Source of the DNA: Akkermansia muciniphila
Lineage (GTDB): Bacteria > Verrucomicrobiota > Verrucomicrobiia > Chthoniobacterales > Chthoniobacteraceae
Length of the DNA: 47,732 bases
Direction of reading: 5' to 3'
Assembly (NCBI GenBank): GCA_945906945.1
Contig: CAMDSZ010000001.1
Location: 1 to 47,732, forward strand
Part shown: one piece after another, positions 1-28,908 of the stretch
How the letters are laid out: the number at the start of each line of letters is the position of its first letter
Position numbering within the stretch: the stretch's first letter is position 1
The notes under the pieces: model-generated
The model's input: only the letters and a program-made list of their open reading frames with translations
Told to the model about the DNA's origin: nothing
Databases searched by the model: none
Translations under genes and position numbers: made by a program

Positions 1-1
1 A

Positions 2-3000
2 ATGACCAACCAGTCCACGATTCTCGCAGTGGGCACCACCTATGGCATTTCAGCCGGGATGCGCCTGATTGGCACCGGGCTGCCTGACCCGGTGGAAGTG
101 AGTGCAGTCTCCAGCGACGGCCGCAGCATCACGCTCACAGGCTCGATCAATGTGGGGACATTGTTTGGGGAATCGGTGTCGACGATTGGAGCGCCTTCGC
201 TGTCAGCGTTCGTTGTGCCAAACAGTGGCTCTGTCACCGCACAGACGGGCTCTTTGGAGGCGTTGCCCGATTACAATCCGAGCGGGGATGACAGCGAAAA
301 CTACGCGATCAAGCCGATACGCCAGGTGTTGCGGATCCGAGCCGACCCTGACAATTCGCTCATTTCTGGAAGCATTGTTTCAGTGGGAACCATTGGATTT
401 AGAAATTACCCGATAACTATGGCAAAGACCCTGATGGCGGGGACTTTTACGGTTGAGGTGCGTGAAAGTTCTCCGGCGGTGCGTGCGAGCGGAATTTCGA
501 ACGACCAAAAATGGTGGGGTGTGCGCGGAGTGCGTCCGGGGATGCGGGTGATAAACAAGAATCTGCCGCCGGGTTGCTATGTTTATTCGGTGGATGATGA
601 TTCGCGGGTGGTGAATGGAACCCTGTCCTACGGGCGCTTCACGGTGGCAATTCCAGTGGTGAATCGCGACGTTCCCAACACGGTTGTTTCAGGTTGGTCG
701 GGCGCAACCTCAGGCACGGTGAACATCACTGCCGGAGGTGGGAATGGATGGAGCGAAGGGATGGACCTCTCAGGTCCCGGAGTGCCTGCTGACACAAAAA
801 TTCAGGCGATCTTTTATCCTGGCACGATCAGCACCATCTTGTTGTCGAAGTCAGCGACTGTCGTGGCTGGAGCAACATTGACCGCATCCGGGCAGGGGTT
901 CACCGGCGATGTAACCAAAGTTTTCTCAGAGGCCAGATATTTGTACTACGCGCTTACTGGCATTGCTCCGTCCGCCGGAAAAATTTCACTCGTTGGCTCT
1001 GGTACGGTTCAGCTCAGCACACCCATCCCGCTGGACGGGCCTTTGGCATTTTTGCCGGATTCACCAACCGACTTGTATTCGGTGGGGATCCTCAACGGTG
1101 GCTATTTCACGTACAACGATTTCAATTATTTAAAACTTGCGATTCCAGCAAACAGCAACGGGACGGTTGACGACTACGGATTCAATTTCATTTTGTCCGG
1201 GGCCAATACTGCTTCGTTTAACGGGGGTACAATCGCCACGACTGCCGTCAGTTTTTCGAAGAAAAATGGTGGCAATAATTTCTACCAGGGCGGGGGAAAC
1301 AATGCCTTCGGCACTGTAGGAAATACGGCGGTTCTCACTGCGATTCCGGCGTTGCCTTTGAGGACCTGCAGTTTTGTCAACGGCTCCAAGATTGTCCGAA
1401 CATGGAGCACCAAGAGTCTGCTGCCGGGGATGTTCGTCCACCACAGGAATCTCCCTGACAGAGCATATGTGAAGCGAATTATCGATGATCAAACATTCGA
1501 AATATCGTCATACACTGGTGGGGCGACTGGTGGCATTCAGAATGATGATGTGGTTATCAATAACACCGTGGTTCCGAGTCGAGTTCTCGGGGTGCGTTCC
1601 TGGGGGTTGGTGACCACTCCGGTGGCTGCTTCTGGAACGGTGAATTTGAAGCTCAACGATGTGAGCGGGTTGAGTTATGGAACAAGGCTCTTGGGTGCAA
1701 ATTTATCTTCCGGCACCGCGGGCGTGGCAGTGATCACCGGTGTGGATAAGTTCAACTCTTCGGTCACAATCAGCAGCGGGAATACATTCGTCGCGGGGGT
1801 CTCTTTGGTCGCGGTACCAGAATTCGTAGGACCCAATAACATTAACACGTGGAACTTGTATAACTCGCCCATCACTCGTGCTGACGGACAGCCTGTGATA
1901 CTCAATGGCACGGCCTCCAGCTTGAACCCCGCGACGACCTTTCAGGCTGATTTAGGCTTTCTGGCCGTGCCCGGAAATCCGGGGCGTCTGCCCAGTGGCG
2001 CTCGGCTGTTTCCGGACGGAATGGTGGTTGTAGGAACCACCGGAGTTTTTCAGAATTTTGGGGCTGGCGTTGTGCCGGTTAGACAGCAGGTGGTGCTTAG
2101 TGGAACGCTTACAGACACTGGTGCGTTCCCTGCGTGGAGTGGCGCGGTCAGCTTTGTTCCGGGAGTGGACTTGGCGGCGGCAGCGACGGTTGAAGGCGGT
2201 TCAATGGTCACCGTGGGAACCCTGCCAACCGAACGGATCGCAGTCGGCATGCGAGTCTTTGGCCCTGGAATTCCGGAACTCGCTCGAGTGCGCTCGGTGT
2301 TGTCGGGGGGCACCGGCTTTACGATCGGCACGGGAACGCTCGACTTGACCTATGCGGGTAGCAGCACCTCAACCGGAAGCCTCACAGGCGGCTCAGTATC
2401 GCTTGGCACCCTTACAACCGCAACGACGGGAACGGTGATGTCGGTTGGTACAGCCGTAGTCATCGTGCCGAATGGAACGCTGGTCGCTGGCAGTCCGAAT
2501 GTTATCTGCGGAACCGTCGCCGGGCTTGCTCCTGGAATGATCCTTACCGGGTCATCCACCAGTGGAAGTGTTTCGCGCATCACCTACGCGGGCAGAGGGT
2601 ATTCACAGATCGCCTCTATTTCAAATGGCACGCTGTTTACCCTCACTGAGAACGCGAACCAGTCCTCCGCAGGGCCAATGAATTTGGTGGCTGCGTATCA
2701 GAGTTTTCCGAAAGAGTATGGAATGTTCATCACCGGCGCCGGTGTGATCGGCAACGGCCAGGTGTCCATTGGCAATCTTTCCGCAGTCAGTGGAAATGCG
2801 TCATCCTGGCGGTCAGGCTTGCAGCGAGGGATGGTGATTCATGCGCCCGGCCTCTCTCCGCTGGGTGCACACATTCTCCAAGTCAACCCAACAGACATCA
2901 TCGTGTCGACTTGGACTGCCGGAACCTATTCTTTGGGTTCTTTCGCAACCTTGTCTTCCGTTGGACCCACTGGAACGCTCTTGACTTCCAGCCCGTCCCT

Positions 3001-6000
3001 CACGGGTACGGGCACGATTACCATGGCAACAGCGACGGGCATTGTCCCGGGCATGGCGGTCACCGGAACGGGCCTCCCTACGGGCCGCTCGGTTTCCTCT
3101 GTATCAGGCACGGTCGTGACGCTTTCGGGCACGGTCAGTGGCGTTGTCTCCGGGGCTACCATTACGTTTAGCAGTTTTTACTCCTTAAATCCTTCGGCTT
3201 TGAACGCCCCGATTTATTTCAGTGCAACTCCATCTCTGGCGGGCGGCACAGGATTCACAAACAACATCTCCGTCGGTACTGCATCAGGGGTTAACGGGTA
3301 TTGGCTCTCAGGCGGCACGGCTTTGGCCAGCTCCAATCAGATCACGGTAACGTCGGCTCCCTCTTACTTGAAGCCGGGAATGACATTGTATCATCCATTC
3401 CTGAACTCTGGGAGCTTGGTGGAGTCGCAGCGAGGATGGGCCCGGGTAGCAGACGTTTCCGGGGGAGTGGTGACCATTGTTGGGAGTCTCGGGAGCGCGG
3501 TCAGCTCCGGCACCTTTGGAATAGCCGGTTACCTGCCGATGATGCTTTCCCCAGGCAGCCTTTCCGTGGACGGTACGCAGCTTACTTTCTCGGGTTCGAG
3601 CAATCTCTCCGCAGGCATGCTAGTGCATGGAGGAACAGTGAACGGGGGCGGCGCTTATGGCAGCATTTCAGGTGGAGGGAGTTTCACGGGATTTATCCCT
3701 GTGGTCCCTCCCGGTACATTCGTCAGGAATGTAAGCACCGACGGCAGAACGGTCACTTTGAACGGCACGTTAAACACCATTGCCGCTGGAAGCTTGGACG
3801 CAGGTAGCCTCATTTTTTCAACCCTGCCGGGTCAGATTATTCCCGCGGTTTCAACGCGTCCACACTCGAAGCGGCTCTTTGTGCAATCTGGTTCGATCGC
3901 GCAGTCCGGGTATCCCCTAACCGCAAGGCTGGCATGGTGGAGGGATAGCAACATCACGTTGGTCACCGCCGAGGCCCTTGCGAACAACAACACTGAGATT
4001 ATTCTCAACATTACAAATCAGCCCAATAATATCCCGTTCCCGAGCATCTCGGAGGGGGCGCCGATTGTCATCACCCCGCCGTTTGTGACCATGAACGCCA
4101 GGGGTAAAGCGGGATCCAATGTTGTTTCGCTTGAAGGCGGGACTAATGCATTAGTCAACATCCGGGCGCAGGGGGAAGATCTCAAAGTGGGTATGCCGAT
4201 TTTTGGTTACGGGGTACAAAGAGGGACCTTCATTGAATTCATCAACGAGTACACCAACCCAGTAACCGTAGAGCTGTCTCAAGCGCTTGGGCTGGACATC
4301 CCGGTGACTGTTTATGATGCCGATGGAAGCGGCGCTGTGGACGCCCTCGACGAGCCGCTTTCGTACGAGACGCTCGTGGTGAACACGTCCATTGTGTCCT
4401 CCATTTTAAATAAGTCCACCGCTTCGCAGACAGAAATCCAAGTCTTCGATAACTCGGGGTATTTCCCAGGAATGCCTCTGGTTAACAGCTTGGGAAATTT
4501 GACGGCCTTAGGCTTGAATGTGATCGCGAAAATTCCGACGGGGGCCAGGGTGGTATCGAAGCGAGACAGCACCTTCCTTACGCTGAACACCCCTCTGGTA
4601 GGGACCACCAACTACACCACCGTCCCGTACGCAGCTTACACAAATGCCACCACTGCGGAAGCCGCCAACGGTGCGGTTGTGTACGCCACAGCTCCCTACA
4701 TACGCCTCAGAGGAAGGAGCGCCACCCGAACTGCAGCTCAGGGTGGTGGTAGCTCGGTCACCACCATTCCCGGTTCCTCGATTGTGGATTTTGATTCGAG
4801 TTTTATTCAAATGGACCCGAGCTGGGCAGGGATGGCAGTTTACGGTGCGGGCATCCCCCCGGGGGCGAACGTCGAGTCCGTGATTGCGAGCAATCAGTTC
4901 ACTCTAAGCCAGCCAGCTGCACCCACGAGCCTTGTGCCGCAGCAGGCCGCTGCGCCGATTATCTTGGATCCCACCCGAGTCGTGGTTTCCCAGTTTTATG
5001 GGGACAAGAGTTCGCTGGCCCAGCTGACTTTGAATGCGGGTGATTCGGTCCTTTCTGCGCTCCAGAAAAACATGATCCTCGACAGCCCGACCCCGAGCTT
5101 TGGAGGCGCGCAAATTGGAAACGGGCTTCCCAACCTCACCTACCTGACGGGCGGCGCGAGCTTGAGTTCGCGCACCGTTGGAATCAGCGGAACACTCACT
5201 TCCGTTTTTTCTGGGATCAACGTGCGTGCGTTCTACGCCCCGATCCCAATCGGTGTTTCTGCCCAGACCTCGGAGAACAGCTTTACTGTCTCGGGGAACC
5301 TTACCGCACTGTACGAGGGAATGGCTCTGCTCGGGGGGAGTATCGCTACTACTTCGAGCTCAAATGTGCGGCTCAGGACAATCGATCAGGGCAATTCTGA
5401 AATTACGTTTGCGCCATTTTTACGTGTGGGAACGATGGAGGCGACGCCTTCATCACACCCCGAATTGTCAGGTATGCTGAGCAGCCCAATTATCACGCCC
5501 GGCCGACTGTGGTTTGTGAATCCGACGACGGTATTGTTTAAATCTGTGGGATTCACGGAGGGAGGCACGATTGCGGTGAGCGGAAGCGTGCCGAGTTTCG
5601 ACGATGTGAATTCAGTGATCCGCGAGCCTATCACCACTAATCTCTATGGCGGCACGAAAATTAAAAGTCTGCTGACGCCTGTCACTAATTTTGAGTTGAG
5701 CATGCCGGCGCGAGCAACCTCGGGTGGGGTTAGATTGCTGGTGAATCTGGCTGGGGACCGTGCGAATCCGGCAGCCTCGGTGTCGGCTGGAAGCCGCAAC
5801 AGGTCATTCATCCAGATTCCTCGAGCTAGCACCACGGCTGGAAGTTCGGTAGTGCAGTTTGCAGCGGCGATTAAGGCGTTGTATTTGGATTCTACAGCCA
5901 ACGGGTACTCGATAGTGGGCCAGCCCATTTACGGTACGGGAATACCAGCGGACGCGTTTGTTCAGTCCGTGGCGATGGACGGGCTTTCGCTCACGCTCAG

Positions 6001-8290
6001 CAAGGCGGCTGAGGCCGATTCGAGTGAGCAGATTATTGTGGTGAATCCCAACTATGTCATTCCTCTTGAGGGTGCGTTTGCCGCTGCGAATTCGCTGGAA
6101 GCCCAAGTGGAATCGATTGGGGCGGGCAGCGCACTGACCCCGGGGCTGTCCATTTCGGGATTGAACCTGTCCAGCGATACAACGTTGATCAGCTTCACAA
6201 ATACTGCGGAAGGGACGAAGTTAAATTTGAGCGGCCGAACCCTTGGGTACCCCTCATCGCAACTGCCCGGTTTGGGAAATTTTGTTGCGACGGTCCCTTT
6301 TGTGACATTGAAAGACGCCGTGGTGACCGCGAATTCAAACACGATCACCGTGGGGGATTACCAAGAGCCCCCCGGATCGGTGAATACATACCCACAGACA
6401 TCAGGTTTGCGGGTGGGAATGACGGTGATGGGGAGTGGATTGCCGTATGGAACCCAGATCACCGGGGTGATTAGCGGGACGTTGACGCTTTCGCAGTCAG
6501 CGACCAGGACGGGTACCTACACTTTGATTGTAAATCCAGAAGTGCTCTCGGCTCCAGGTTTGCAGCTGACGGCGGGCGGATCATTGGTGAGTCTCAGCGG
6601 ATCGGGGCTTGGAGCCGATACACCGCCCGCGGAGATCATTGCAGGAAGTCTTTCCTCAGACCTTGCCGAGCCGTTCGGTCCCTACGGGCTCGCCAACCAG
6701 TGGCAGAAGCTCGCCTCCTGGGGCAGGGCTCTTGGCGCCCCAGCAATTCCTCACGGAACGGTTTTTTTATCACCTTATTTCATTAACTTTGGGTCCCTCG
6801 GTGGGATCCAAGCCAGTGATAGAGCTTCAGTGCTAGCCGGTGGGTATTTTGATTTGACCAGCGCCAATGGAAACGGTGGCGATACACTGGGCGCCGCTTC
6901 CTTTACCATGAACCAGCGTGCCACAGCGTCGACGAGTTTAGCAGACTTTTATCTGACTTACGGAAGAAGCAGGCTAATTCTGACGGGTACAATACTAAGC
7001 GGCTCATCTGCCTTGAGTGTTTCAACGGTGGACGGTCTGCAGCTGGGACTTCAAGTGGACGGGGCGGGGATCCCGAGCGGGACCCGGATCGTTGAAATTG
7101 ATAGCATCAACAATCGATTGGTTTTGTCGGCTTTGGCGACGGCGACGACTAACGGAGCGTTCAGCTTTTCGAAAACTGGCGCTCTTGTCTCATCGGATTC
7201 TGGGGTGTTTTTGAACAATACGGTGGTGAGCAGCTTGGACTCGAGTGCTATTCAGCCGGGACAAACTGTATCTCTGGCAAGCGGCTCGCTGTTGATTATT
7301 CGAAACATAGTAGACCCCGTCAGTGGCGGGAGCGTGGCTGTGCCGAGTTACAACAACACCCCGTTTATGACGAGTCTGTTGGGGAATGCTGGTCCACGGG
7401 TGCGCTCCGTATCGTCAAACGGATCACTTGTGTTTGAAACAAATACAACTCCGGGCTTGGTGCTCACGGCAGGCACCTCCATCAGCAGCAGCACCGTCTC
7501 GACAACGTTCACCGTAGCAAGCAACCTGATGTTCAATATCAATGGGAACGTTTTTGGACCGTACACCATGGTGGCGGGCTCCACTATTGCAACGCGGGCT
7601 GCGGCTAGTTACCTGGCGCTGAGTCAGCCAGCGCAAAAAAGCTCCAAGTCGGTTCGAGTTTTGTTGGATGGAAAGCCTTACGGGCCTGTGGAAGTCATCA
7701 AAGGTTCACAGGCTCTCCTTTGGCGAGGTGCCGATTTTGTAAGGGCAGGCATGCCGGTGAAAGGCCCCGGCATTCTGCAGGGCACCACCATCCTGCAAGT
7801 GAGCCCGCCTCTGAGTAATGGGTCGCTCACGCTTACATTGAGCGCGCCAGCAACAAGTGAGTTGGCGGCGAATAGCAAATTTGATCTGGAGGTTGGCGGT
7901 GGGGTTAACAGCGGAATCGTGGAACTCAATGACTGGCAGTACAAGACCAATACCGAAAACCTGTCTGTGGAGCCCGGCTGGTTGCTATACCGCAGTAACG
8001 ACCCTTGGGCGGCAAACTGGTACCCTGGTTTTGGGAGAGGTGCTGGCGGCAGCAAGTTTGAGTTGGTCGATTATCTGCTTTTAGGGAAGATCACTTGGGT
8101 CGCTGGCAATGGGGTCTTTGGATTTGAGCCGATTCCCGATCCCCGGAACCGGGTGGCGTTCGACTCGCAGAGCCAGTACCTCATGGATCGGCTAAGTTTT
8201 GAAGCGACGACAGACGTGGCGCTCTCTTCCGGACGCCAAGGCTTTATTGACCAGTCGCTATCGGATTTTTACATGCTGGGACAGACCCCC
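2..8290 (+). repeat. N-terminal ~2,760-aa region: roughly 20-24 degenerate copies of a ~45-55-aa 'GM-box' mini-domain separated by variable G/S/T/V-rich spacers (75-215 aa period)
   Basis: Recurrent motif, approximately GS..[IV].[VL]-x(4-10)-[LI]..GM.[VIL].G.G[IL]P.GT.[IV]..[VI]-x(4-8)-[LIV]TLS..A. Clear copies: IVPGMAVTGTGLPTGRSVSSVSGTVVTLSGTV (3041..3136); SWAGMAVYGAGIPPGANVESVIASNQFTLSQPA (4820..4918); LRVGMTVMGSGLPYGTQITGVISGTLTLSQSA (6407..6502); VRAGMPVKGPGILQGTTILQV...LTLTLSAPA (7739..7852). The very first residues are also a copy: GISAGMRLIGTGLPDPVEVSAVSSDGRSITLTG (~41..139). Copy count is by eye. Confidence 0.6.
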
Positions 8291-11200
8291 GACTTCTTTG
8301 TAGAAGCTGGCAATGCCAGGAGTATTAGGTGGTACAAAGACGGGGAACTGCTTAATCAAGCCGCGGGGAGTTCCAGAGTACAGGTGAGGGTGTCTAACTA
8401 CACCGAGGGCTTTAGCCCTTCTGTAGCCAGAACTGCAACTTCTGACTTCTGGCAACGCTCGCAACTCTCGTTGAGTGCTTTGACCCTCAGCAGTCCCGGC
8501 TTTTATTATGCAAACGGGGTTTCTTCCAACGCTGGGTCCTACTCATTGTCGGATTTGATCCAGGTGAGCATTCCAGATCCGCAGCCTCTGATCGTAAAGC
8601 AGCCCGTATCAAAAGTGGTGCAGCGCGCAGGCACCCAAGTGACCCTGGAGGTTGATCTCAAATGCAACAGCAAGGCGCTGCTAGACACACCGAGGGGGCT
8701 AGCGGTTGCGCCAGACGGAGATTTCTACGTGGTGGAGTCGGGAAATAATTCGCTGCGGAAGGCAACGCTAGGGGGCTTTGTCAACACCATGATCGGATCC
8801 AAGAAAGCGATTCTTGACCCGAACGCCGACGGTGTATCGCGTGATTCGATTTGGGGAATGGCGTCTGGCATCGCTGTGAGGGTGGGCAGCCTTATGATTT
8901 CAGATAAGCTTCTGATTCTCCCATCAGGAACAGCCGGACTCACCGCTGGGATGAAAGTGCTCAGCTCCTCAATCAATGATCGGATTCTGCTGAGCAACTC
9001 GGCAGGCATCACCATTAGCGGTTTTGCGGGTGCAAACACGGTGATTCTTTCAGGCGCACCCGCAGGTGATTCTCCCAGCCACTCCATCATTTTCATCCGC
9101 CCCGAGGCTGAACTCCCAGCGAGTACGAACGAGGTAGTCTACCGGAGGGCAATCTCCAGCTACTCTTCCTTCGGTGTCACCTTGCCAAGCGGAGTTCAAA
9201 ACATTGTGCCCGGAATGCTGGTCTGCGGTTACGGAGTGCCTGACTTCACGACGGTGACAGCCGTCGAAGCCAAGAGCAACTCCGTCACCTTGTCGGGGTG
9301 GATAAGGCATGAAGGACTTGAGGCGAACAACCTATTGGTTTTTGTGCGACCACTGAATCAGCCCGAAGCGATCGCAAGTGACGAAGTCGGGGCCCTCTAC
9401 ATCGCAGACACGGGGAACAATCGGATCTTGAGGTTTTACCCCAAAACGGTTCAGGACAAATCAAGAGGATTTGATCCTGCTGTCCCTGCGGGAACAGTCG
9501 AGGTTTTGACTCCGGCGTCGGGGCCGCAGCTCTCTGCGCCTCGTGGGATCACGGTTGTTGGCTACGGGCCGGAGGCAGTCGTTTACGTGGCCAACTCTTC
9601 TCAAAACACTGTGCTGAAAATCGCGCGAAGTGGGGCATCGTGGGTGAGCACAACGCTCGCCGGTAAACCGGGAGTTTCGGGTTACGCAGATGGGGTGGCA
9701 ACGAGCGCGACATTCAATGGGCTACGTGATGTCGCGTACTACAACGAGTCGGTTTACGTCGCGGACTATCTCAATCACACAATTCGGCGGATTTCATTGG
9801 GTCAAACTCCCGAGGTCACGACGGTGGCGGGTGCGCCGGGACAGGCGGGTCTGATCGATGGCAGTGGAAGCGCCGCGAAACTATATTTCCCGGCAGGTTT
9901 GGCGGTGAATAAGGTGGACGGGAGTCTAACCGTCTCGGACTTGGGCAATCATGCGATTCGAAAACTCAACGCCAATGGTTCGTTGGTGACGATAGCAGGG
10001 AAGATCTTCAACGGAATTCCGGCCTTTGGGAAAGAAGACGGACTCGGCACCTCTGCGGGTTTCTGGTACCCCAAAGGCATCGCGATCGACAAGACGGGAG
10101 TGATCCGCATCGCAGACACCTCGAACCATCTGATCCGATCCATTACACCAGATGCAGCGGTTAGCACGGTGGCGGGCGTGGCCAAGTTCCCTTTCTTTAG
10201 AGATAGCGATAAGGATTGGGCAAAGCCTGTTGCCTATGTCCCAACAGAATTCATGGTGCAATGGTATAAGGACGGGGCCAAAATTACAGACGGCATTACG
10301 CCAAACGGCTCCGTGTTCGCTGGAACCAAGACCCGAATCCTCACGATCGACCAAGTCACTGAGCAGGACTCTGGAGCTTACGCGGCTCTTTTTGAGTCTG
10401 TGACTCGCGTCCCCGTTGAGACGAACGTCACCCAAGTGGTGGTTGGTGGAAATTTGGCGCCGGATTACGTCGGAGAATTCACGGTCACACCCGGAACCTT
10501 GGGTGCGATGAAAATGAATTTCCGTGATATTTTGCCTCCAACTCCGAGCGAGGCTTTCGTGCTCAATCAAATTCGGTGGGACGAGACATTCGAATCCGAA
10601 AAACCGTTCTGGTTGGATTTGGTTTCCAGCACGTTGCCGTCAGAACTGGACGGCAAAAAGGTGACGTTGAGCGCCGCCGGCGTCAACCACTCCATGGTCC
10701 TCACGGAGGATGGAAAATTATACGCGTGGGGCGCCAACAGTTACGGTCAGCTGGGGGTGGGGGATCGCAGTGCGCGGTTTACTCCGGTCCCTGTGTATAT
10801 GGGCGGGGTGTTGAGCGGAAAGACGATTACAAAGATCGCACTGGGCGAACATCACAGCTTTGTGCTGGATAAGGACGGGGCGCTCTACAGTTGGGGACGG
10901 AATGATTTTGGTCAGCTTGGGATTGGGTCAGTTTCGGATGCAAAAGTTTACCCAGAAAAGGCACTCTTGACCGGGTGGACAGCGATTGCCAGCGGGTATC
11001 AGCACGCCCTGGCGGTGAACTTCCGTGGGGAGCTGTACACATGGGGCTTGGACCATCACTCCCAGCTTGGACGACTCAACCGTCCGGCCACTCGCACGGT
11101 GACGTTTTCCAACGTTTCCCTCGCGGCCTTAAGCCAGACAGTCGGGCTAGGCAACAGCACTGGCTTGATTGCGGGCAGCACGCTTACCTTTGCGGCAGGT

Positions 11201-14200
11201 TTACTGGACGGTGGTACCGTCCAAGCTGTGGTTAGTTCTGTGATTGGAGAGGGGCAACTCCGCATCGGAACGGCTTCAGCCTCTGCCATCTCTGGGACAA
11301 CGTTTACCGCGTCTGTTTACTGCGACCCGGTTCCCACACAGATCACTGTGTCGAATGTTACGCCATTCGTGCAAAACTCGGTTGAACAGACGGGAAATGT
11401 GATTGCAGGCGGGCGTGCCCACTCACTGGTGGCCACCACCGGTGGCGTGCTGGCATGGGGGGAGAATAATCTTTTTCAAGCTGGCGCACTGAGCTTCGCT
11501 GATGTGGCGACTCCCCAGTTGATTTCGGCTACCAACGGCTTGCAGATTTCGCAGGTCAGCGCCGGACGCGAGCATTCAATGGCGCTTAGTGATGGAGGAA
11601 CGTTGTTGGCGTGGGGTCGGAACGATAGCCGCCAGCTAGGTGCTGATCTGCATCCGCGAGTGGTGAGCGGTTCCGCTTCGGTTGCGGCTGGAGGCACCCT
11701 TACTGGGAGCGGTACCAGTTCGGTAATTCAGCTGGCAAGCGTCGATGGAATCACCCGAGGGATGTCATTTACGGGTGCTAATTTGACTGGGACAACGCCC
11801 AAGGTGAGAGAAGTGTTGTCGGGCCAGGGAGTCATGCTGTCAGGAGGGAGCGTAACATTGGCCGAGGGAGGCACGATGCTGAGTTTCCAGCGAATCACCG
11901 CAGGAACAGTTCATGGAACGGAGTACAGGATGACTGCGTATCCGATTTCCACTGAGGCATCTAATGTGGTCCGTGTAAGCAGCACTGCGGCGCTTGGCGC
12001 CTCGTCCAGAAGCAACAGGGTGGATCCCGCGTGGGCTGGAACGGTTTCGAGGACATTGACGATGGTGAGCACAGGTTCATGGGCTCCGGGAATGGCGGTG
12101 TACGGTACAGGCGTCCCTTCGGGAACGCGGATTGTTTCCGTGGACGACAGTAGCAACCAGGTAACACTGTCTGGTTCGGTAACGGTGAGTCCGAGCACGG
12201 TGTTGGACGCTCGCGGTTCGAGTCTTGGGAACGAACTTCTGGCGGGGCCGATGAAAGTGACGGGTTTCAGCGCGACCGGGCAGTCTTTCTCCAGCACCCT
12301 GAGGTTGGAACGGATTGTTGAGGGCCCGGCTGTTGTGCTGTCGGGGAACGCAAGTTTTGTCAGTGGAGGCTCGGCCGCATTAAGCGCCCGGTACGGGAAT
12401 CTCGCGCTCTCGGGGACGGTTGCGTTCACCGGCAGCTTGGTGGCGGGGACCACTCAGGTCGTCGTGGCTGGAACCTCCGGGCTGGAAATCGGGATGGAGC
12501 TAAGCGCCAGTGGAAGCCTTGCAGCCGGGACCACCATTCAGGAGATTGTGACTGGCAAACTAAAGCTGTCCTCTGCTCCGCTCATCTCTGGGGCATCCGT
12601 CCCGATGATCGCAACCCGTGTTGCTTCCAGCAGCCCGGTGGCGGTGAATTTGTCCGAGCTGCGACTGCCCGAGGCTGTATCCTCCGTGACGCGGCGTGTC
12701 ACCGATATTAGCAGCGGTGCACAGTTTAACTTTATCAAGACCTCGGACGGCCTGTTCTGGGCCTGGGGGTTGAACTCGGATGGGCAGTTGGGGGATGGCA
12801 CGTTCAACGACAAATCCATACCCACTGCATTCTTGTCACCGGCCGAAGAGACGTTTGCATGGATTGCTCCGGGTGGAAATCATGCATTGGCCACGACCAC
12901 CGGGGGGGGATTGTTCTCCTGGGGAGGCAATCAGTCGGGTCAGCGGGGTGATGGGACGACGAATACGGTGGCCGACCCTCAAAGACATAAGGGCATCACC
13001 GAATACTTTTTGCAGGCTCAGAGTATTCCCGATTCAGAAGGCCAGCAGCAGGTGCGCGCACGGGTAATTTTAAATGACTCCCAGAAAGTAGAAACGCTGG
13101 TAGTCGTGAAGCCGTCGGCCGCGAACTATGTGAGTCCAAATGCGCCGGTGATTACAAAACAGCCCGCATCGGTGATGGTAGCTGCGGGTGCGACTGCGAC
13201 TTTGACGGTGGAGGCGCGCTCTGAGCTGCCCCTGCAGTACCAGTGGATGTTGAACGGGGTGGATGTAGCCTTGGGCGGGAACAGCCCAAACTACGCGTTG
13301 ACCGATTCGCCGCGGACTCCGATCGCAGGGTTGTATTCAGTGAAGGTGAGTGACGAGCGGGGAAGCATCGTGTCCAAAACCGTGCAGGTTGCGGTGGTGA
13401 ACAGCCCGAGCGTGTTTGCGGAACCGGAGGCCCAAGTGATCCTTCCAAAAACGTCTACATCGATTCAGGTGCTGATGCAGTCTCAGTTCAAAACCTTGTT
13501 TAATTCTCCTCACGGACTTGTGGTTCGAGGAAACGGTGACCTCCTGGTTGCCGACCGCGATAACAGTGTCGTGCGCGTGATGAATGACGGGGGGTTTGTT
13601 GAGACATTGGTAGGGATTCCACAGCAAAGCGGCTGGGTTGATTCGGTGGGCAACCTTTCTCGGTTGTCCAGGCCCGAAGGGTTGACTGTATTGAACATCG
13701 GTGAATTTGAACTGGTGTTCATTACGGATCCGGGGTCGCACACAGTGCGTTGCCTCACTTGGGAGTTTGATAAATCTGTTGGCGATTTCGTGTACCGTTT
13801 GAGAACAGTCGCAGGTTTGCCAATGCAAGCTGGGTTTGTGGATGGCGATATGAAGGAAGCGAAGTTTAATTCGCCAATGGGAGTCGCTGGGTTTGTTTCC
13901 CAGAGGAAAGATACTTCGACGCAATTGCCGCTGCCCGATCAGTATGAGGTCTACCTGTATGTTGCGGACCTGAATAACCATGCATTGAGACTTGTGCTGC
14001 TGCCCGTGACTGTGAGTGAGGACGCGTTGGCCGCAGACCCAAGGAGCAAGCGGACCCTGCAAATCGCACCGAGCATGGTGGCAAGTGTCGCAGGTGCTAC
14101 TCCAATCACTCCAGGGCCGGGCAGCAACGACTCCGCTGCATCGGGACAGCCCGCGCAGTTCTTACTACCCTCAGATGTGGCTGTCCAAGCTGGGTCCAGC

Positions 14201-17200
14201 CATGCGGTGTACGTGGTGGATTCTGGAAATCACAGCATTCGGCGGGTTGAGGCGGATGCGCCCACCTCGCAGCGACTGGCCCAGGGAGTGATTGTTGGAA
14301 CCTACAAGGGGACTGGATCCACCTACATCACGTGGGGTTCTTCTCGCCGGCCCGACTGGGTCAGGCCTGGGATGAAAGTTTCCGCATCCGGATTTTTTAA
14401 GGATGAAACGTATGTGAGTCGGGTGGACGATGGCGGTGTCTTTGTGAGCCAACCCGCGCTTATTCAGGGGGTGACATCCGTGCAATTCACGGATACTCTC
14501 GTAAACTCAATTTTCACCACTTACACGTATGCCGGAACTCCGGGAATCTCAGGGGCGCAGGACGGAGCGGGGGTGCAGGCGCGGTTTTGGTTCCCGCAGA
14601 AAGTCGCGATATCTGGGGATGGTTCATTGTTTGTGTCAGATACAAACAATTGCCTAATTCGTAAGATTGCGCCCTCTTTAGATCCGAGGTCTGGGATTGT
14701 GCGGGTTTTTGCCGGGGTTGTGGGCAAGAGCGGATCTGTTGACGGGCCGGCCTCGATGGCCCAGTTCAGTGCGCCAAAGGGTGTTGCGGTTTCCGACGAC
14801 GGGTCGGTTTATATTTCCGATGACGGGTCGCATCTTATTCGGAAAATCTACGATTATTACGGGGATCGGATGGTGGCAACGCTCGGAGGGCTAGCCAAGT
14901 CTCCCGGCCACATGGATAGCGACCTTGTTTCTGAGTACATCTATCAGTGGAAGAAAAACGGAGCTCCCCTCGGTGCTGCGATTCGAGGCGAAGCAGGCCG
15001 TACGCTCACTTTGAGCGGCGACGCTGCTGATTCGGGAGTTTATGTCGTGGAGGTCACATCTGCGGCACTCTCGAGCTTTAAGTTCACCTCTCAACCGGCA
15101 CAGATCACGGTTCCGGCTTCGAGCGCACCGGTGGCATTCGTAAAGTCGATCACGGTTAGGGCGGGGAATACCTATCAACTGGGCGTCAACGACGTATTCA
15201 AGACGTACTTCCCAAAGCTTGACTGCAAACAATTCATATTTGAGCAGGTTGATTCGAGGCGGCAGACATTGCCGGAGTGGATACAGATTCCAGCTCAACT
15301 AGCCGGCCCAGATCAGGCAGTTGTATCCATCACTCCGAAGGCGGACGCAACCACCCAGTCCCTCGTGATCAGTGTTCTTGCTGATTTGGACGATGGAACA
15401 ACCAAGCTGGGTTATCTCCAATTCAATGTTCAAGGCGTTCGAGTGGATCAAGACTATAGGCCAATCATTGTCCAGCAGCCCACGTCATGGAACTCTACTG
15501 ATAGCGCCCTAATGAGTGACAGACTGGCGGTGAAGGTGATGTCTGGGGATGAATTCTCCACCAGTTATCAGTGGTACCAGAGACAGAAGCCGAGCGCCTC
15601 TTATCTCAGTTACTCAGGCGGTTCGCAGGTCAGTGTGAATTCGCTGTTGAGATCTAGGCAGGCTGCGACAACTGGGAGTCTTGCCCTCTCAATTCCGGTG
15701 TCTGGGGGAACGGGAAGTTCGTTATCATTGCCTCCACCCCTGACGGCGGGAATTTACGCGCTTAAGGTTACAAATAAAAAAGTGCTCTCAAGTTCGACGA
15801 ATACCGTCTTCACGCAGCAAGTCGTGTATAACACGTCAGGGAATTCAGCGGCAGCGACCGGTTCTTTTTCGACGGTCACGAATCAATCACTTGCTTCTGA
15901 CGGTTCTTCGGTCGAAACGGATCTCGTTCAGGTGGTGGTTTCCGGCCCGCCTCAGGTGGTGCAGCAGCCGTTCTCTTACCTTCAGTCGGAGGGCGACCGT
16001 GTGATTCTCAGGGTTTATCCGAAGACTTCCGCGAAATCCTTGATGAACGAACCGCGTGGAATTGCTTACAACAGCAGTGACCAATCCTTGTTATCGGTGG
16101 AGCGCGGCAATTACGCGGTTCGTTCCGTTTCTCTGGGCGGGGAAGTCGCCGACTTCGCCGGTTCGCGTTCGGATTGGGGCGGCGACGACTCCCGACTCTC
16201 GAGGGAAGCCCGATTTGGCAGAACTGACGGAGGCCCCGAGGGGTTGACCGTTGATACTTCGGGGACGGTGTATGTTGCTGATACCATGAATCATGTGGTT
16301 CGCATGATTTATGGGGGCACCGTTAGCACAATTGCGGGTGTCACAGGGTTCGCGGGTTCAACCAACGGTTCTGGCCAATCTGCACGATTCAACATGCCTT
16401 CCGGAATCGCCAGCAGGAACACAGTTGATACGAGCGGTTCGGAAGTTGTGATTCTTTATGTCGCGGACTCAGGCAACCATCTGGTTCGGAAGATTATGGT
16501 TTTGAACAAGGGCAAGACAAATCAGACTATTTCGGTTACGACGCTAGCTGGCGGAGCAGGAATTTCAGGCTATGTGAATGGCGACGGTTCCAGCGCAAGA
16601 TTCTCCGAACCGTTTGATGTGGCTTATTCAAACAACAAAGTGTTCGTGGCAGATTTTCAAAACCACGCAGTACGCTGTATTACCGATCACAACGACGGGA
16701 ATCCCGCAAATGTGACGGTTATCACGCTCGCAGGGGGTGCTCTGGTGGGAGGAACCGAGGTTTTTGGATTGGACATTCCGAATAACCCTGATTCCCCGCT
16801 TTCGGGATTGGACGCAGGATTGAAGGCGAAGTTTTTACATCCCACGGGCGTAGCCTCGGACGGTCAATTTGTCTACGTGGCAGACTGGGGTAATCATGTT
16901 GTCAAACGGGTATCTTTCCCGAGTCCGGGAGCCCAGCAGCAGTCGCTCAGAGTCGAAGTGATCGCAGGTGAGTCAGGTGTTCCAGGTGAATCAGGCGACG
17001 GTCCAGTCAAAGCAAAGGATGCTCGCTTCAAGGAGCCGACAAAAGTCGCCGTGGATCCTTTAGGGAATGTTTATGTTTCTGACTCTTGGAATCACGTGAT
17101 CAGAAAGATTGGCTTAGACCAAGTGATGACCACGGTTGCGGGTGTCGAGGGGCTTCCTGGTGATTTGAACAGCGACTTGCCAGTGGAATTTTATTATCAG

Positions 17201-20200
17201 TGGTATAAGGGCAATCGGCCAATCACGGGCGGAAGCGGAAATGCATCCTCCTATGAAATTAAGTCTCTCAGCTCCGCTTCGGAAGGAGACTACACAGTGT
17301 TGATTTCGAACGATGCCAGAATGAGTGCGTCCTTGATGAGTGCTTCTGCCTCGGTAAAAATGGCTACGCCCACGAGCATGAAGCTGGTGGACGTCATTGC
17401 GGGTCAAACCAGTATCATTGGGAAGAGTGTGATTCGATCAGGTTCTTTGGCCGTGGATCAGCTGCCGACATGGGCCCGGGTGGATAGTCTGGGGAATTTG
17501 GTTCTGTCGCCAAGCGTAATGGAGCCTGTCGGTCTTGTCTCTGGCACCTACGGCGGGGATCCACTGTTTGTAAATGTGGTGTCAAAGAAGCAGGGTATGC
17601 TCTCGCCAAGAATTCTCACCGAACCGATTGATATTCTGACCGGCGTCGGCCAGGACCTGAATTTGCGAGCAAAAGTCCAGCTACCGGGGGCTGCGGCAAC
17701 TGCTGTGGCAACACTTTCAGCTCAAAATGTCAAATGGTACAGGCTTGGTGCGGCTGGGGCGCTCGTGTCTTGCGGCACGCTAGGGGACGCCACTGGGGCT
17801 CGCTCTTCGTTACTGCCCGATGTTCTCCCTGAAACGTACGAGGTGAATTTAAGTTGCCCGCGCGTGCAGGCCGGTCAGGCCGGATTTTATCGCCTTGAAG
17901 TTACGCCGATCCAAGGCGGCGCTCCATTGATCTCGAATTGGATTCAAATCGTGCTTCAGGCTTCTCCATCTTTCGTTGAGCAGCCTGAACCCGAAAAGTT
18001 TTTTGTCGTGGGAGGGTCACTTTCAATATCGGCCGAAGTGCGGACGCCGGCGAAATCGCTGTTCCAGCGTCCGGTGGGTCTGGCGTCTTTGCCAAACACG
18101 TCGCGACTGATCATCGCGGACGAAGAAGATCGAACTGTCCGGATATCCTCCTCGGGAGGCCGAGTCTCTAACTGGTTAGGTGCATCGGGGATCAGCGGTT
18201 TTGCGTCAGGTTCGGGTGAAAATACACGCTTGGGCTCTGTTGAGGCAATAGCTTATGACCCCGGCATCGTGCTGAACTTGAGAAGTGCAAGGCTTACGGC
18301 AGGGTCCGCCTGGATTAAGGTAAAGGAGATCGAAGGCATACACCTAGGAATGACAGTCTCCGGGACTCTGGCGATCCCTGCCGGCGCGCAAATTGAGGAA
18401 ATCGGAGCGGCGGAAGGCTTTTTCCGAAACATCAAGTTGAGCACGACCGCGACTCAGACCCACGCCGAAGTCGATCTGGTTGCCACTAGGGCGAGCGCGA
18501 CTTATTTGGCGGACTCCGTCAACCACGTCATTTGTAAGGTGTCTATGGCCGGCGAAATGAGGGTACTCTGCGGTAGTTTGGGGGTTGCGGGCGACGGAGG
18601 GCTTTACTGTTCTTTGGATAACGCAAAGTTTAATGCACCTCAAGGAGTGGCGGTCGATCCATTGGATGGAACGGTTTATGTTTCCGATACGGGTAACCAC
18701 GCCATCCGGATGATTCAACAAGGGGTGCCAAGGGTGTATTTGGTCGCCGGGGGAACCTTTGGGGATACGCTGGCGTTGCCCTCTTACAGCTTCAAAGATG
18801 TGTCTCGCGAGGAGCTTGGAAACGGGTTTTCCACGTTCAGTCCGTTGGACGTGAAGTTTTATCAGCCCCTAGGGATTGCGGCACGCACTCGTCTTTTGAC
18901 TTCTTTGGATTTCCCGTTGGGTCGATATGTAACTGAGGTTTTTGTGGCTGACCGGATGAACCATGTGGTTCGGGTAATTCGATTAAACGCGCGGAAGCCC
19001 GACAACAGCTTTGCCGTGTTAAATTGGAGCGGTCTGTCTACCGATAAATCCGCTTATTTCAAAGAAGGCCTGTATGACAAAGTTCTCGGTGTGCTTACCT
19101 GGGCGGGTCAGCCCGGAATTAGCGGCGCGAAGGATGGAGCCGGTGATAGCGCTAAGTTTAATTTGCCTTACGGGTTGGCTCTCGACTTCGGCAACGAAGT
19201 GGATGGAAGTCTCTATGTTGCGGATCAAGGCAACCACGCGCTGCGGCGCATCGCTACAGAATTTGATGCACAAACCCTGGTTTTTAAGGATCAGGGGACT
19301 GTAGAAACCGTTGCGGGCATCTTAGGCGTGCCTGGCGCTGCAGATGGTTCTGTGGTCACTGATCCCGTTACGCAGGTTCAAACTGCGATTCCTTCGCGGT
19401 TGTCGTGGCCCACTGGTGTCGCTGTGAACTCGAGAACTGGAGAGGTTTTTGTGTCTGACACAGGGAATTTCTCCATCAGGGTTTTGAGGGACGGTGTTTT
19501 GCAAGCTTTTGTTGGTGAGCTGGGAGCAAAGGGATCCTTTAATAGCGCCGAAGTTTTGGATGGGTTCACTTACCAATGGTACAAAGATGGAAGCCCGATC
19601 GCAGTAAAGGGCTCCGGATTGCAAGGTGTCAATTCGGACACGCTCAGCAATTCGCCGATGGCTTTCAGTGATATAGGCGCATACCAACTGGAAGTCCGCG
19701 GGGCGACTACTCTGCGGAGCGCGGTCAGTTTGCTGCGCGCCGAGACTCCCATGCGATTCATTGAGAGTCCCTTGTCGTACGTTCAAAACAATACGTTGAC
19801 CAACAAGGGCGGTGTTTGGAACAATGATCGAGGGTTCGAGGTGGATCCTTACGGGACCGTCCGTCTTACAGCTACAGTATACGGGGCGGGAAACCTTGGC
19901 TATCAATGGAGCAAAAATGGCATGCCGTTGTCAGACGGAGCAAACCTTTCTGGTGCCGTACTCGGCGGGGTATTGTCTCCGAGTGTCACTTTGGGAAGAG
20001 GCGGATGGAAGAAAATTGACAGTGCAGTGGCTGGCCCGCGGCACTCTGCAGCAATCAGTGCGGGGACGCTTTACATGTGGGGAGCGAACGACGCTGGGCA
20101 ACTGGGGCTTGGGGATCGAGTGCCTAGATCGCTGCCGCAGGCTCTGCCTGCAAGTGCATTTGGTGGAAATCAGGTGAAGGAAGTCGCTCTTGGGCAGAGT

Positions 20201-28800: not shown

Positions 28801-28870
28801 TGCCGCGCAGCGGCTGGCCCGGGTCGCGCACGTGCTTTTCGCCAGCGTGGACTTCAGATACATTCGCTAG
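25814..28870 (+). CDS. PSCyt1-DUF1549(PSCyt2)-DUF1553(PSD1) family protein, 1,018 aa, with an extra beta-sandwich insert and a low-complexity linker
   Basis: Hydrophobic N-terminus (LYGLAVAPLFHAAFAVA). CxxCH 'CLECH' lies at 25967..25981 within FEKKVRPLLEEHCLECHSAAKKIKGGLRLDS (Planctomycete cytochrome-c-like). A second motif, CARCHDHKFDPI, lies at 26912..26947. C-terminal DUF1553-type text: NPLTARVLVNRTWAWVFG, HPELLDYL, ...ASVDFRYIR. Confidence 0.9.
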   Translation: MHFRTSKPRILRNLYGLAVAPLFHAAFAVAHPSAGEVNYFEKKVRPLLEEHCLECHSAAKKIKGGLRLDSQSGWKIGGDSGPALVPHDPEASLLIKAVRYRDPDFQMPPRKKLAARELEILEQWVRTGAHDPRREDLALQNPTRTQSRALALEDAASHWAYRAVVPQAEPVVRNGAWAEGPIDRFLLRAMESASITPVRDADAAVVLRRLHLLLTGLPPEPEAIDAFELEYKRDRRQAVLKTADALIASTAFAEAFARRWLDLTRFAESSGGGRTLLFKDAWRYRDYVLNSIHADVPLNRFITEHIAGDLLPASSVQERARLLTATGFLALGPTNYEEQDKQQLRFDIIDEQLDTIGKAFLGQTIGCARCHDHKFDPIPQRDYYALAGIFSSTRTLNNLTDNVARWVVEPLPGYPEEERLEHEHKQKVAQLRAKIEAARNQVARLNSSPLQGESIVKGPIAIDRFHGIILDDADAKLVGAWKTSSFFKNYVGVGYLTDENTGKGEKTATFTPLFAHSGRYEVRFAYSAGPNRSKEVRVTVFHADGEEVVTVNETEEPAVDGHFTSLGTFRFEKDGAGFVLVSNAGGAGHVVVDAVQFIQDTLPAARTVTQAAAGTAGTASAPSAAGSDANSTGPQTTSASVSSNNGADQLPASKKVDSAKDARATLASLSEELKQLEKKAPPRSVAMVVSENVEVGDTALRVRGIAKQKAEIVPRGFLRAVMVDDAKQIQFDATQSGRTQFAQWLTSDNNPLTARVLVNRTWAWVFGAGLVGTTENFGTTGEKPTHPELLDYLTARFIQQGWSLKQLVREMVTSHAWRLAEEAPLGADPTNKLLSRHSVRRMDADQIRDTMLHAAGRLSREFGGANINGAKDINANESSAANIEYNYIFTDVRRSLYTPAFRNRRHEVFDVFDFGDINNSVGVREASTVAPQALFFLNSAFAGEQAKAVGERLAVSHPDPIAAVDRVSLVMLGRHPSQTEAKVLSALYNSCPSEEDAAQRLARVAHVLFASVDFRYIR

Positions 28871-28908
28871 TCTTTCCCCCGTCTCCCTCCACTTTACCCC
28901 CAACGGAT

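What the first reader, a model, noticed from the sequence alone, without database searches (positions are those of the whole stretch)
8881..9385. GM-boxes inserted inside propeller blades: a third nesting level, with NHL-3 as a natural insert-free control
In NHL-1 the second blade is split between its first strand (…SGIAV) and second strand (GALYIADTGNNRILRF) by 168 aa containing two GM-boxes. NHL-4 is split at the equivalent point of blade 2 (VEAIAYDP | insert 18263..18492 | SATYLADSVNHVICKV). NHL-2 has a GM-box at a different place, between blades 4 and 5 (14250..14530). NHL-3 (16052..17150) has none. GM-boxes therefore sit within NHL propellers that sit within Ig domains. Their different positions among paralogous propellers imply repeated gain or loss of this module within coding sequence.
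Basis: seen in the sequence. Interest (0 to 1): 0.65.

Follow-up and report, generated by a model that had tools for sequence, protein, structure and literature searches.

The report
Small barrel domains nested inside propellers
A giant 8,535-residue protein of a freshwater bacterium carries copies of an unnamed ~80-residue beta-barrel repeat (the "GM-box", also found in phage tail fibres) spliced into three of its four NHL propellers, a real and selected example of domains nested three deep, but of a kind already known in principle.

Summary
The window holds one ORF (2..25609, 8,535 aa) with about 26 GM-boxes. A profile built only from the N-terminal array finds GM-boxes inside NHL-1, NHL-2 and NHL-4. 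NHL-3 is an intact, insert-free six-bladed propeller, and each propeller sits inside a split Ig domain.

Three corrections:
- The NHL-2 box lies inside blade 4, in the C-D hairpin, not between blades 4 and 5.
- The first NHL-1 box is degenerate.
- The NHL-1 insertion point is ambiguous. Strand-A-like motifs flank the insert on both sides, and a profile of foreign NHL proteins slightly prefers an intact blade 2 with the insert in the blade 1-2 connector.

The GM-box is predicted to be an autonomous six-stranded beta-barrel (pLDDT 84). It has no Pfam or NCBIfam model, yet about 4,900 protein clusters match its profile, and it resembles phage fibre domains. Other giant proteins carry it inside NHL blades as well.

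The inserts are old: boxes are about 24% identical, no DNA repeats mark the borders, and composition is unremarkable. They are under purifying selection in lake metagenomes.

At least two insertion sites imply repeated events, but gain cannot be told from loss. Domain insertion into propellers is known (UBR5, integrins), so this is a new variant of a known kind.

The parts
2..25609 (+). Giant ORF, 8,535 aa. It may be cut at its 5' end by the window edge, because the first GM-box lacks its first strand.
2..7876 (+). N-terminal array of about 17-18 GM-boxes (aa 1-2625).
   Evidence: Self-built profile; alignments A1 and A2
8579..8665 (+). N-terminal half (strands A-B) of the Ig domain that hosts NHL-1 (aa 2860-2888).
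   Evidence: Stitched to aa 3409-3482, it gives one Ig_3 match (profile 3-72/78, 36.5 bits)
8678..8848 (+). NHL-1 blade 1 (aa 2893-2949), including the canonical connector motif DGVSRDS.
   Evidence: pLDDT about 80
8849..8878 (+). Left strand-A-like motif IWGMASGIAV (aa 2950-2959).
8867..9103 (+). GM-box 1 of NHL-1 (aa 2956-3034), a degenerate copy ending in IIFIRP.
   Evidence: Leave-one-out 11.9 bits, 0 of 1000 shuffles reach it; 6.1 bits with the array-only profile
9122..9352 (+). GM-box 2 of NHL-1 (aa 3041-3117), a canonical copy ending in LLVFVRP.
   Evidence: 33.6 bits with the array-only profile; AF2 model with pLDDT 84 and six strands
9353..9391 (+). Right strand-A-like motif LNQPEAIASDEVG (aa 3118-3130), contiguous with strand B.
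   Evidence: Best deletion model keeps it (59.5 bits); it aligns to profile positions 3-30
9392..10186 (+). NHL-1 blade 2 strands B-D and blades 3-6 (aa 3131-3395).
   Evidence: pLDDT 88-98; Foldseek hits to NHL propellers
10226..10447 (+). C-terminal half (strands C-G) of the Ig domain that hosts NHL-1 (aa 3409-3482).
11672..12598 (+). Three GM-boxes (aa 3891-4199) interrupting the first RCC1 propeller.
   Evidence: 57 bits with the array-only profile
13496..14899 (+). NHL-2 propeller, six blades (aa 4499-4966).
14261..14515 (+). GM-box inserted in the C-D hairpin of NHL-2 blade 4 (aa 4754-4838).
   Evidence: 89.0 bits for this deletion
16040..17152 (+). NHL-3 propeller, six blades, no insert (aa 5347-5717).
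18059..19528 (+). NHL-4 propeller, six blades (aa 6020-6509).
18260..18487 (+). GM-box inserted in the A-B hairpin of NHL-4 blade 2 (aa 6087-6162).
   Evidence: 64.1 bits for this deletion
23504..23695 (+). Free-standing GM-box after the last Ig domain (aa 7835-7898).

Best explanation
**What the GM-box is.** It is an autonomous domain of about 75-85 residues, predicted to fold as a six-stranded small beta-barrel. Its motif is G[ST]..v.V....GL..GM.V.G.GIP.GT.I.SV.....vTLS..a, followed by a last strand.

**Why it can be inserted (inferred).** One copy fits inside a tight A-B or C-D hairpin, so its first and last strands should bring the two chain ends together. That would let it be spliced into a loop of a host domain without breaking the host fold.

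**Layout in this protein.** Copies form a long N-terminal array and also decorate the propellers:
- one box in the A-B hairpin of blade 2 of NHL-4;
- one box in the C-D hairpin of blade 4 of NHL-2;
- a pair of boxes, one degenerate, between strand D of blade 1 and strand B of blade 2 of NHL-1; I think this pair most likely sits just upstream of an intact blade 2;
- three boxes inside an RCC1 propeller.

The A-B and C-D loops lie on the same face of a propeller (textbook geometry, not tested here). The NHL-2 and NHL-4 boxes would therefore project from the face opposite to where the chain enters from and leaves to the Ig domain.

**Origin (inferred).** The inserts arose by old in-frame insertions or duplications of GM-coding segments, at two or more independent sites. 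They have since diverged to about 24% identity and are now maintained by purifying selection.

**Function (inferred from relatives only).** The boxes are non-catalytic binding or spacer modules of an extracellular adhesin- or fibre-like giant protein, as in phage tail fibres. They would add extra surfaces or struts to the propellers.
For: - **Independent profile detection.** A profile from the N-terminal array alone finds the GM-boxes in the inserts, and shuffled controls fail.
- **Blades heal when the insert is removed.** Each host blade gives one continuous match after the insert is deleted.
- **Autonomous fold.** The AF2 model of NHL-1 box 2 alone has pLDDT 84, pTM 0.73 and six strands.
- **Propeller still predicted.** In the AF2 model of Ig + NHL-1 + inserts, blade 1 (pLDDT about 80) and blades 2B-6 (88-98) form a propeller. 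It matches six-bladed NHL structures, and the Pizza6 alignment spans the insert (TMt 0.80 over 499 columns).
- **Family is large and often in giant proteins.** The GM profile finds 4,938 clusters at E<=1e-3 and 905 at E<=1e-10.
- **Recurrent nesting elsewhere.** GM-boxes lie in NHL C-D hairpins or connectors in P0166, P0190 and P0152.
- **Phage fibre resemblance.** The model matches phage tail-fibre and virion proteins with TM 0.70-0.77, rmsd 1.4-2.1 A and E down to 2.6e-5. P0123 combines 14 GM-boxes with tail-fibre PHROGs.
- **Real and selected in nature.** Independent lake metagenome runs have contigs collinear across both insert borders, with no indels or joints. Of 40 listed variants, 34 are synonymous; inside the insert, 10 are synonymous and 2 are conservative changes.
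Against: - The nested AF2 model leaves the inserts and the Ig halves below pLDDT 50. How the boxes pack against the propeller, and which segment supplies strand A of blade 2, is not shown.
- Box 1 of NHL-1 is only weakly GM-like.
- The window's GM-boxes hit no PHROG, Pfam or NCBIfam model, and PDB fold matches are weak (best E 6.7e-3). The link to phage fibre domains therefore rests on predicted structures.
- No signal peptide, localisation or ligand evidence was obtained.
- Function and origin are inferred.
Confidence: 0.7

Rival explanations
1. In NHL-1 the GM pair splits blade 2 between strand A (…SGIAV) and strand B (GALYIAD), at the same point as in NHL-4. One ancestral blade-2 insertion would then be shared by NHL-1 and NHL-4 and later duplicated or lost.
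For: - The left motif is preceded by a canonical connector in perfect register (DGVSRDSIWGMASGIAV against DG.G..A.F..P.GvAv).
- It lies at the normal distance from strand D of blade 1.
- The deletion model 2959|3127 still scores 55.4 bits.
Against: - The foreign-homologue profile prefers keeping the right-hand motif (59.5 bits).
- The right motif carries the 'PE[GA]' pattern seen in blade 2 of NHL-2, NHL-3 and NHL-4.
- Counted back from the GM motif, 'GIAVRVGSLMIS' lines up with the first GM strand of the NHL-4 insert ('GIVLNLRSARLTAG').
- NHL-1 and NHL-4 are not closer to each other than to the other modules (33.6% identity).
- Their GM-boxes are not nearest relatives.
Confidence: 0.35
2. The 'inserts' are only long native loops or decayed extra NHL blades with no domain identity.
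For: - Box 1 of NHL-1 scores poorly with the array-only profile (6.1 bits).
- It contains blade-like fragments (SLMISD, NDRILL).
- Other long loops without any GM signal do exist in these propellers (NHL-2 blade 3, NHL-4 blade 4).
Against: - NHL-1 box 2 and the NHL-4 and NHL-2 inserts score 26-35 bits with a profile that never saw them, while shuffles stay below 10 bits.
- The GM and blade profiles are unrelated (hhalign probability 0.04%).
- The blade profile gives only about 2 bits on box 1.
- The isolated box is predicted to fold as its own barrel.
Confidence: 0.05
3. The insert is a mobile or removable element (intein, IS remnant, recently transposed coding cassette) or an assembly artefact in a repetitive gene.
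For: - The 168-aa size is close to that of a mini-intein.
- The gene is highly repetitive at the domain level.
Against: - There is no Hint or intein Pfam hit.
- The borders carry no intein-like residues (…GIAV|RVG…, …SDEV|GALY).
- No flanking DNA repeats were found, and there is no GC discontinuity.
- Independent metagenome runs give collinear contigs with no insert-free joints.
- Variation is mostly at third codon positions.
- The boxes are too diverged (24% identity) to cause misassembly.
Confidence: 0.02

Closest known systems
[quoted passage not shown]
   Same: Small beta-barrel domains are nested inside blades of a propeller that still closes. More than one insertion site is used in one propeller family.
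   Different: UBR5 is a eukaryotic E3 ligase with unrelated sequence. Its propeller is seven-bladed and RCC1-like. Its barrels are not members of a repeat array and are not reused elsewhere in the protein. There is no third (Ig) nesting level.
Unnamed small barrel domains of phage tail-fibre and virion structural proteins. BFVD examples: Bordetella phage PHB04 tail collar protein A0A291LAU2, Synechococcus phage S-PM2 Q5GQW2, and Syn30 fibre M4SIH3. PHROG family phrog_17105.
   Same: The predicted fold matches the GM-box model (TM 0.70-0.77, 20-31% identity). These domains also occur as tandem arrays in long fibre-like proteins. P0123, a strong GM-profile hit, matches phrog_17105 thirteen times and carries tail-fibre PHROGs at its C-terminus.
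   Different: The window's own GM-boxes do not hit phrog_17105 or any other PHROG at E<=0.01. The phage proteins were not shown to carry the domain inside propeller blades.
Integrin alpha I-domain inserted in the seven-bladed alpha-subunit propeller, and the inserted domains of sialidase and endosialidase propellers (papers listed; the insertion details are from my own knowledge)
   Same: An autonomous ligand-binding domain is spliced into a propeller loop, adding a binding surface.
   Different: The inserted folds differ (a Rossmann-like vWA domain; lectin-like barrels), as do the host propeller families. These are single insertions, and the insert is not a repeat unit used elsewhere in the same protein.
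NHL-repeat six-bladed propellers (Pfam PF01436; SOQ1 7djj, NHLRC2 6gc1, teneurin NHL, TRIM71, Pizza6 designs)
   Same: The host domains are ordinary members: six blades, the P.GvAvD..G.lYVaD..NhrIrki motif, and Foldseek E values of 1e-15 to 1e-10.
   Different: None of the 120 best sequence homologues of NHL-1 contains a GM-box.

Membership tests
NHL repeat beta-propeller (PF01436 / PF25021) | Repeated ~40-60 aa blades carrying the NHL motif and scoring above the Pfam gathering score | tested here: met
   NHL scores 78.2 and 173.2 bits against a cut-off of 20; TEN_NHL scores 41.7 and 77.2 against 27.1.
NHL repeat beta-propeller (PF01436 / PF25021) | Six blades closing into a ring | tested here: met
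   Six blades were mapped in each of the four modules. The AF2 model of NHL-1 matches six-bladed NHL structures, and the Pizza6 alignment spans the insert with TMt 0.80. Strand A of blade 2 was not resolved.
GM-box repeat (defined here; no public model) | Match to a profile built from the N-terminal array only, beyond shuffled controls | tested here: met
   NHL-1 box 2 scores 33.6 bits, NHL-4 34.9 and NHL-2 26.1; shuffles reach at most 9.8. NHL-1 box 1 scores only 11.9 bits leave-one-out, though 0 of 1000 shuffles reach that.
GM-box repeat (defined here; no public model) | Autonomous fold | tested here: met
   AF2 on a 22-paralogue alignment gives pLDDT 84, pTM 0.73 and six strands. This is a prediction only.
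phrog_17105 / phage fibre barrel repeat | Sequence match to the PHROG profile | tested here: not met
   Window GM regions give no PHROG hit at E<=0.01, whereas P0123 gives 1.8e-118.
phrog_17105 / phage fibre barrel repeat | Same fold as the domains of phage fibre proteins | tested here: met
   BFVD Foldseek gives TMq 0.70-0.77 and E from 2.6e-5 to 1e-3. Both sides of the comparison are predicted models.
Immunoglobulin domain (Ig_3, PF13927) as outer host | One continuous profile match once the propeller is removed | tested here: met
   The stitched halves match Ig_3 positions 1-3 to 72-78 of 78 for all four modules, at 36.5, 19, 30 and 27 bits against a gathering score of 30. Two reach the cut-off.
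Intein (Hint domain) | Hint-domain match and splice-junction residues (C/S/T at the start; HN followed by C/S/T at the end) | tested here: not met
   No Hint family hit in Pfam. The junctions read GIAV|RVGS and SDEV|GALY.
Known small beta-barrel folds in the PDB | Significant structural match | tested here: inconclusive
   The best PDB match is 8eci_1 (E 6.7e-3, TMq 0.61). Next come phage tail tube and tailspike proteins, endosialidase, Uba1 and F1-ATPase barrels at E>0.04. A PDB sequence search found nothing significant.

The most novel reading that the evidence does not exclude
The GM-box is an undescribed, widespread 'plug-in' domain family shared by phage fibres and giant bacterial surface proteins. 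It would be predisposed to colonise hairpins and connectors of beta-propellers and other hosts (NHL, RCC1, possibly FlgL) by repeated in-frame insertion, making it a general route for adding binding modules to existing folds. This protein would then be its most extreme case, nested three levels deep.
Probability: 0.35. Interest if true: 0.6.

Novelty: new variant of a known kind. Interest (0 to 1): 0.45.

Why it matters
- **A natural control for domain insertion.** One polypeptide offers the same propeller family with a one-box insert, a two-box insert, a differently placed insert and no insert. All are under selection in wild populations.
- **A large unmodelled domain family.** About 4,900 clusters at 50% identity match the GM profile, yet Pfam and NCBIfam have no model. 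The family links giant bacterial proteins with phage tail fibres, and a model for it would improve annotation of many very long 'hypothetical' proteins.
- **Guidance for protein engineering.** The NHL C-D hairpin is used repeatedly as an insertion site, which suggests permissive positions for building on propeller scaffolds.
- **Limits.** The finding does not reveal a new biological mechanism.

Tried and rejected
- **Automatic MAFFT alignment of NHL-1 with homologues.** It shifts the register by one blade or scatters residues into the insert. I replaced it with blade-wise alignment and deletion scans. For structure prediction I used homologue fragments starting at strand B. This removed the information needed to place strand A of blade 2.
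- **Nested AF2 model.** The inserts and Ig halves came out below pLDDT 50, so it settles neither the packing of the boxes nor the strand-A question.
- **Word-indexed protein search with the GM alignment.** No hits. The exhaustive profile search succeeded.
- **Search for orthologues to polarise gain against loss.**
  - The genome-contig scan returned only generic NHL matches to YIADTGNN.
  - The metagenome-contig scan with the insert alone found nothing.
  - The C-terminal 636 aa have only four homologues, all on contigs of 3.3 kb or less.
  - A look-up of the neighbouring ProRS gave one 2.8-kb Logan contig with no taxonomy.
- **GM-box phylogeny.** At a mean of 24% identity over 64 columns, nearest neighbours are uninformative. 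No tree was built.
- **DNA repeats and microhomology at the borders.** None found. Short inverted repeats (8842-8856/9439-9453; 18267-18281/18432-18446) were judged to be chance.
- **Public models and structures for the GM-box.** Pfam, NCBIfam, PHROGs and PDB sequence searches found nothing.
- **GM-box as a decayed NHL blade.** Rejected by hhalign.
- **Intein, mobile element or misassembly.** Rejected.
Full report
**Context.** The window is dominated by one ORF, 2..25609, encoding 8,535 aa. Pfam finds NHL repeats, RCC1 repeats, Ig domains and a Laminin_G_3 domain. Downstream genes (PSCyt1/PSCyt2/PSD1, DUF1501, ProRS, sulfite reductase and others) are chromosomal and typical of Planctomycetota/Verrucomicrobiota-type genomes. 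The DNA occurs in many lake-water and freshwater metagenomes.

**The GM-box is a real repeat.** An iterated profile finds 26 copies of a ~64-residue core, G[ST]..v.V....GL..GM.V.G.GIP.GT.I.SV.....vTLS..a. A further strand follows 10-20 residues later, for example IIFIRP and LLVFVRP.

The copies are distributed as follows:
- about 17-18 in the N-terminal 2,625 aa;
- two at aa 2956-3117 in NHL-1;
- three at aa 3891-4199 inside the first RCC1 propeller;
- one each in NHL-2 and NHL-4;
- one at aa 7835-7898.

As an independent test I built a profile from the N-terminal array alone. It scores NHL-1 box 2 at 33.6 bits, the NHL-4 insert at 34.9 and the NHL-2 insert at 26.1. Three hundred shuffles of each insert never exceed 9.8 bits. 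Other long loops in these propellers, and all of NHL-3, score about zero.

NHL-1 box 1 is degenerate. It scores 6.1 bits with the array-only profile and 11.9 bits leave-one-out, a value that none of 1,000 shuffles reaches. The GM profile and the NHL blade profile are unrelated (hhalign probability 0.04%), so the inserts are not decayed blades.

**Anatomy of the propellers.** Each of the four NHL modules has six blades. With the inserts removed, the modules align blade for blade and are 34-38% identical in every pairing. In insert-free blades the A-B loops are 3-20 aa and the C-D loops 5-38 aa. The exceptions are 172 aa in NHL-1 blade 2, 80 aa in NHL-4 blade 2 and 91 aa in NHL-2 blade 4.

To place the borders without relying on the window's own paralogues, I built blade-pair profiles from 80 foreign NHL proteins and scanned all single deletions.
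- **NHL-4:** unambiguous. Keeping …SVEAIAYD and resuming at RASATYLAD gives 64.1 bits. This is an A-B hairpin insertion of aa 6087-6162.
- **NHL-2:** unambiguous. Keeping …SIRRVEADA and resuming at TTYTYAG gives 89.0 bits. This is a C-D hairpin insertion inside blade 4, aa 4754-4838.
- **NHL-1:** ambiguous. Both IWGMASGIAV on the left (preceded by a canonical DG…connector) and LNQPEAIASDEVG on the right (contiguous with strand B, ALYIAD) fit strand A. The best model keeps the right copy (59.5 bits).

Two further points favour the right-hand copy in NHL-1:
- Counted back from the GM dipeptide, GIAVRVGSLMIS corresponds to the first GM strand of the NHL-4 insert (GIVLNLRSARLTAG).
- The right motif shares the 'PE[GA]' pattern of blade 2 in the other three modules.

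I therefore favour, at moderate confidence, an intact blade 2 with the GM pair in the blade 1-2 connector. Either way, the pair lies inside the propeller's sequence.

**Outer nesting level.** Joining the sequence before and after each propeller gives a single continuous Ig_3 match across the junction for all four modules (36.5, 19, 30 and 27 bits). The Ig > NHL > GM nesting is therefore supported.

**Structure predictions.** NHL-1 box 2 alone, with 21 paralogues as its alignment, gives a confident six-stranded model (pLDDT 84, pTM 0.73).

The construct of Ig halves plus NHL-1 plus inserts gives confident blades 1 and 2B-6 (pLDDT about 80 and 88-98). The inserts, the Ig halves and both strand-A candidates stay below 50. 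Part of the reason is that my alignment could only include homologue fragments starting at strand B. The confident part matches six-bladed NHL propellers (SOQ1, NHLRC2, teneurin, TRIM71; E down to 2e-15). It aligns to the six-bladed Pizza6 design across the insert (TMt 0.80 over 499 columns), which is consistent with a closed ring.

**What the GM-box resembles.**
- Against the PDB, the box gives only weak matches to small barrels: a protein of phage Bridgette, phage tail tube and tailspike domains, the endosialidase barrel, and Uba1 and F1-ATPase barrels. The best E value is 6.7e-3.
- Against predicted viral structures, it matches domains of tail-fibre and virion proteins well (TM 0.70-0.77, rmsd 1.4-2.1 A, 20-31% identity, E down to 2.6e-5).
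- An exhaustive profile search finds 4,938 protein clusters at E<=1e-3 and 905 at E<=1e-10. Many are giant proteins with up to 27 matched stretches.
- Ten representative hits have no Pfam domain over the repeats, and four of them tested against NCBIfam have none there either.
- P0123 has 14 boxes, matches phrog_17105 thirteen times and ends in tail-fibre PHROG domains.
- P0135 is an FlgL-like protein followed by eight boxes.

**Nesting is recurrent.**
- None of the 120 best homologues of NHL-1 has a GM-box.
- Among the 150 best GM hits, six have NHL blades.
- P0166 has one box in a C-D hairpin (…HRIRKIEP|GM|RLVTTFAG), one in a D-A connector, and three tandem boxes in another C-D hairpin.
- P0190 has a box in a C-D hairpin, and P0152 has a nine-box array directly after strand C.

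**Age and selection.**
- GM-boxes average 24% identity (maximum 44%), and the intra-propeller copies are not each other's nearest relatives.
- No direct repeats or microhomology flank the inserts.
- GC content is continuous across the borders.
- Contigs from four independent metagenome runs are collinear with the window across both borders of the NHL-1 insert, with no indels or alternative joints.
- Of the 40 best-supported variants, 34 are synonymous. Inside the insert, 10 are synonymous and 2 are conservative (S>A, I>V).

The insert is therefore translated, constrained coding sequence. It is not an artefact, an intein or a recent mobile insertion.

**Interpretation.**
- *Shown:* the GM-box is a distinct, widespread sequence family; it is predicted to fold autonomously; it interrupts three NHL propellers at two or more different structural positions; the same happens in other proteins; the inserts are old and selected.
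- *Inferred:* the chain ends of the barrel are adjacent, which the hairpin insertions require; the NHL-2 and NHL-4 boxes project from the face of the propeller opposite the Ig connection; the boxes act as binding or spacer modules of an extracellular fibre-like protein, as in phage fibres; they arose by in-frame duplication or insertion.
- *Unresolved:* gain against loss cannot be decided, because no orthologue covering this region was found.

**Comparison with what is known.** Insertion of autonomous domains into propellers is established. In UBR5, two small beta-barrels are inserted into blade 5 of an RCC1-like propeller and a UBA domain into blade 2. Integrin I-domains and sialidase inserts are further examples. 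What is new here is the identity of the insert (an unmodelled repeat family), its reuse at several sites and in several host propellers within one protein, and the three-deep nesting. I rate it a new variant of a known kind, of moderate interest.

Noticed in passing
window 8579-8665 + 10226-10447; likewise around 13496-14899, 16040-17152 and 18059-19528: Each NHL propeller is inserted between strands B and C of an Ig domain. Stitching the two halves restores a single full-length Ig_3 match.
   Followed up: yes
window 19748-21900 (aa ~6583-7300): The second RCC1 propeller also appears to be inserted in an Ig domain, at a different loop (after the strand ending …SPSVTLG and before …FGNYTLKV). 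The stitched halves give only a weak I-set match (18.6 bits, E 2e-3).
   Followed up: partly
window 11672-12598 (aa 3891-4199), and possibly 11099-11326 (aa ~3700-3775): Three GM-boxes interrupt the first RCC1 propeller after a …WGRNDSRQLG repeat. A fourth insert of about 76 aa in the same propeller is only faintly GM-like (6 bits).
   Followed up: partly
window 1-60: The giant ORF begins at base 2, and its first GM-box lacks the first ~8 profile positions. The gene may continue upstream of the window. No signal peptide is visible.
   Followed up: no
window ~24200-24330 (aa ~8065-8110) and 22600-23100: The C-terminal part has a PDZ-like stretch and a Laminin_G_3 domain; the fragmentary homologue P0274 carries PF00595. 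Only four homologues of the last 636 aa exist in the 5.8-billion-protein set, all on short contigs.
   Followed up: partly
window 18267-18281 / 18432-18446: A 15-nt inverted repeat (93% complementary) lies inside the NHL-4 GM-box and encodes parts of two of its strands. It is probably chance.
   Followed up: no
P0135 (one search hit; 764 aa): This is an FlgL / flagellin-N-type protein followed by eight GM-boxes. It suggests the repeat also decorates flagellar hook-associated proteins.
   Followed up: partly
window 25814-30357 and 44524-47211: Gene pairs of PSCyt1-PSCyt2-PSD1 (one of them also with a Golvesin_C domain) plus DUF1501 are typical of Planctomycetota/Verrucomicrobiota. The source taxon was not determined.
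   Followed up: no
window 8500-9800 in runs X2-X4: Several co-occurring strains differ from the window by 1-5% in lake metagenomes from different studies. The organism is therefore widespread in fresh water.
   Followed up: partly
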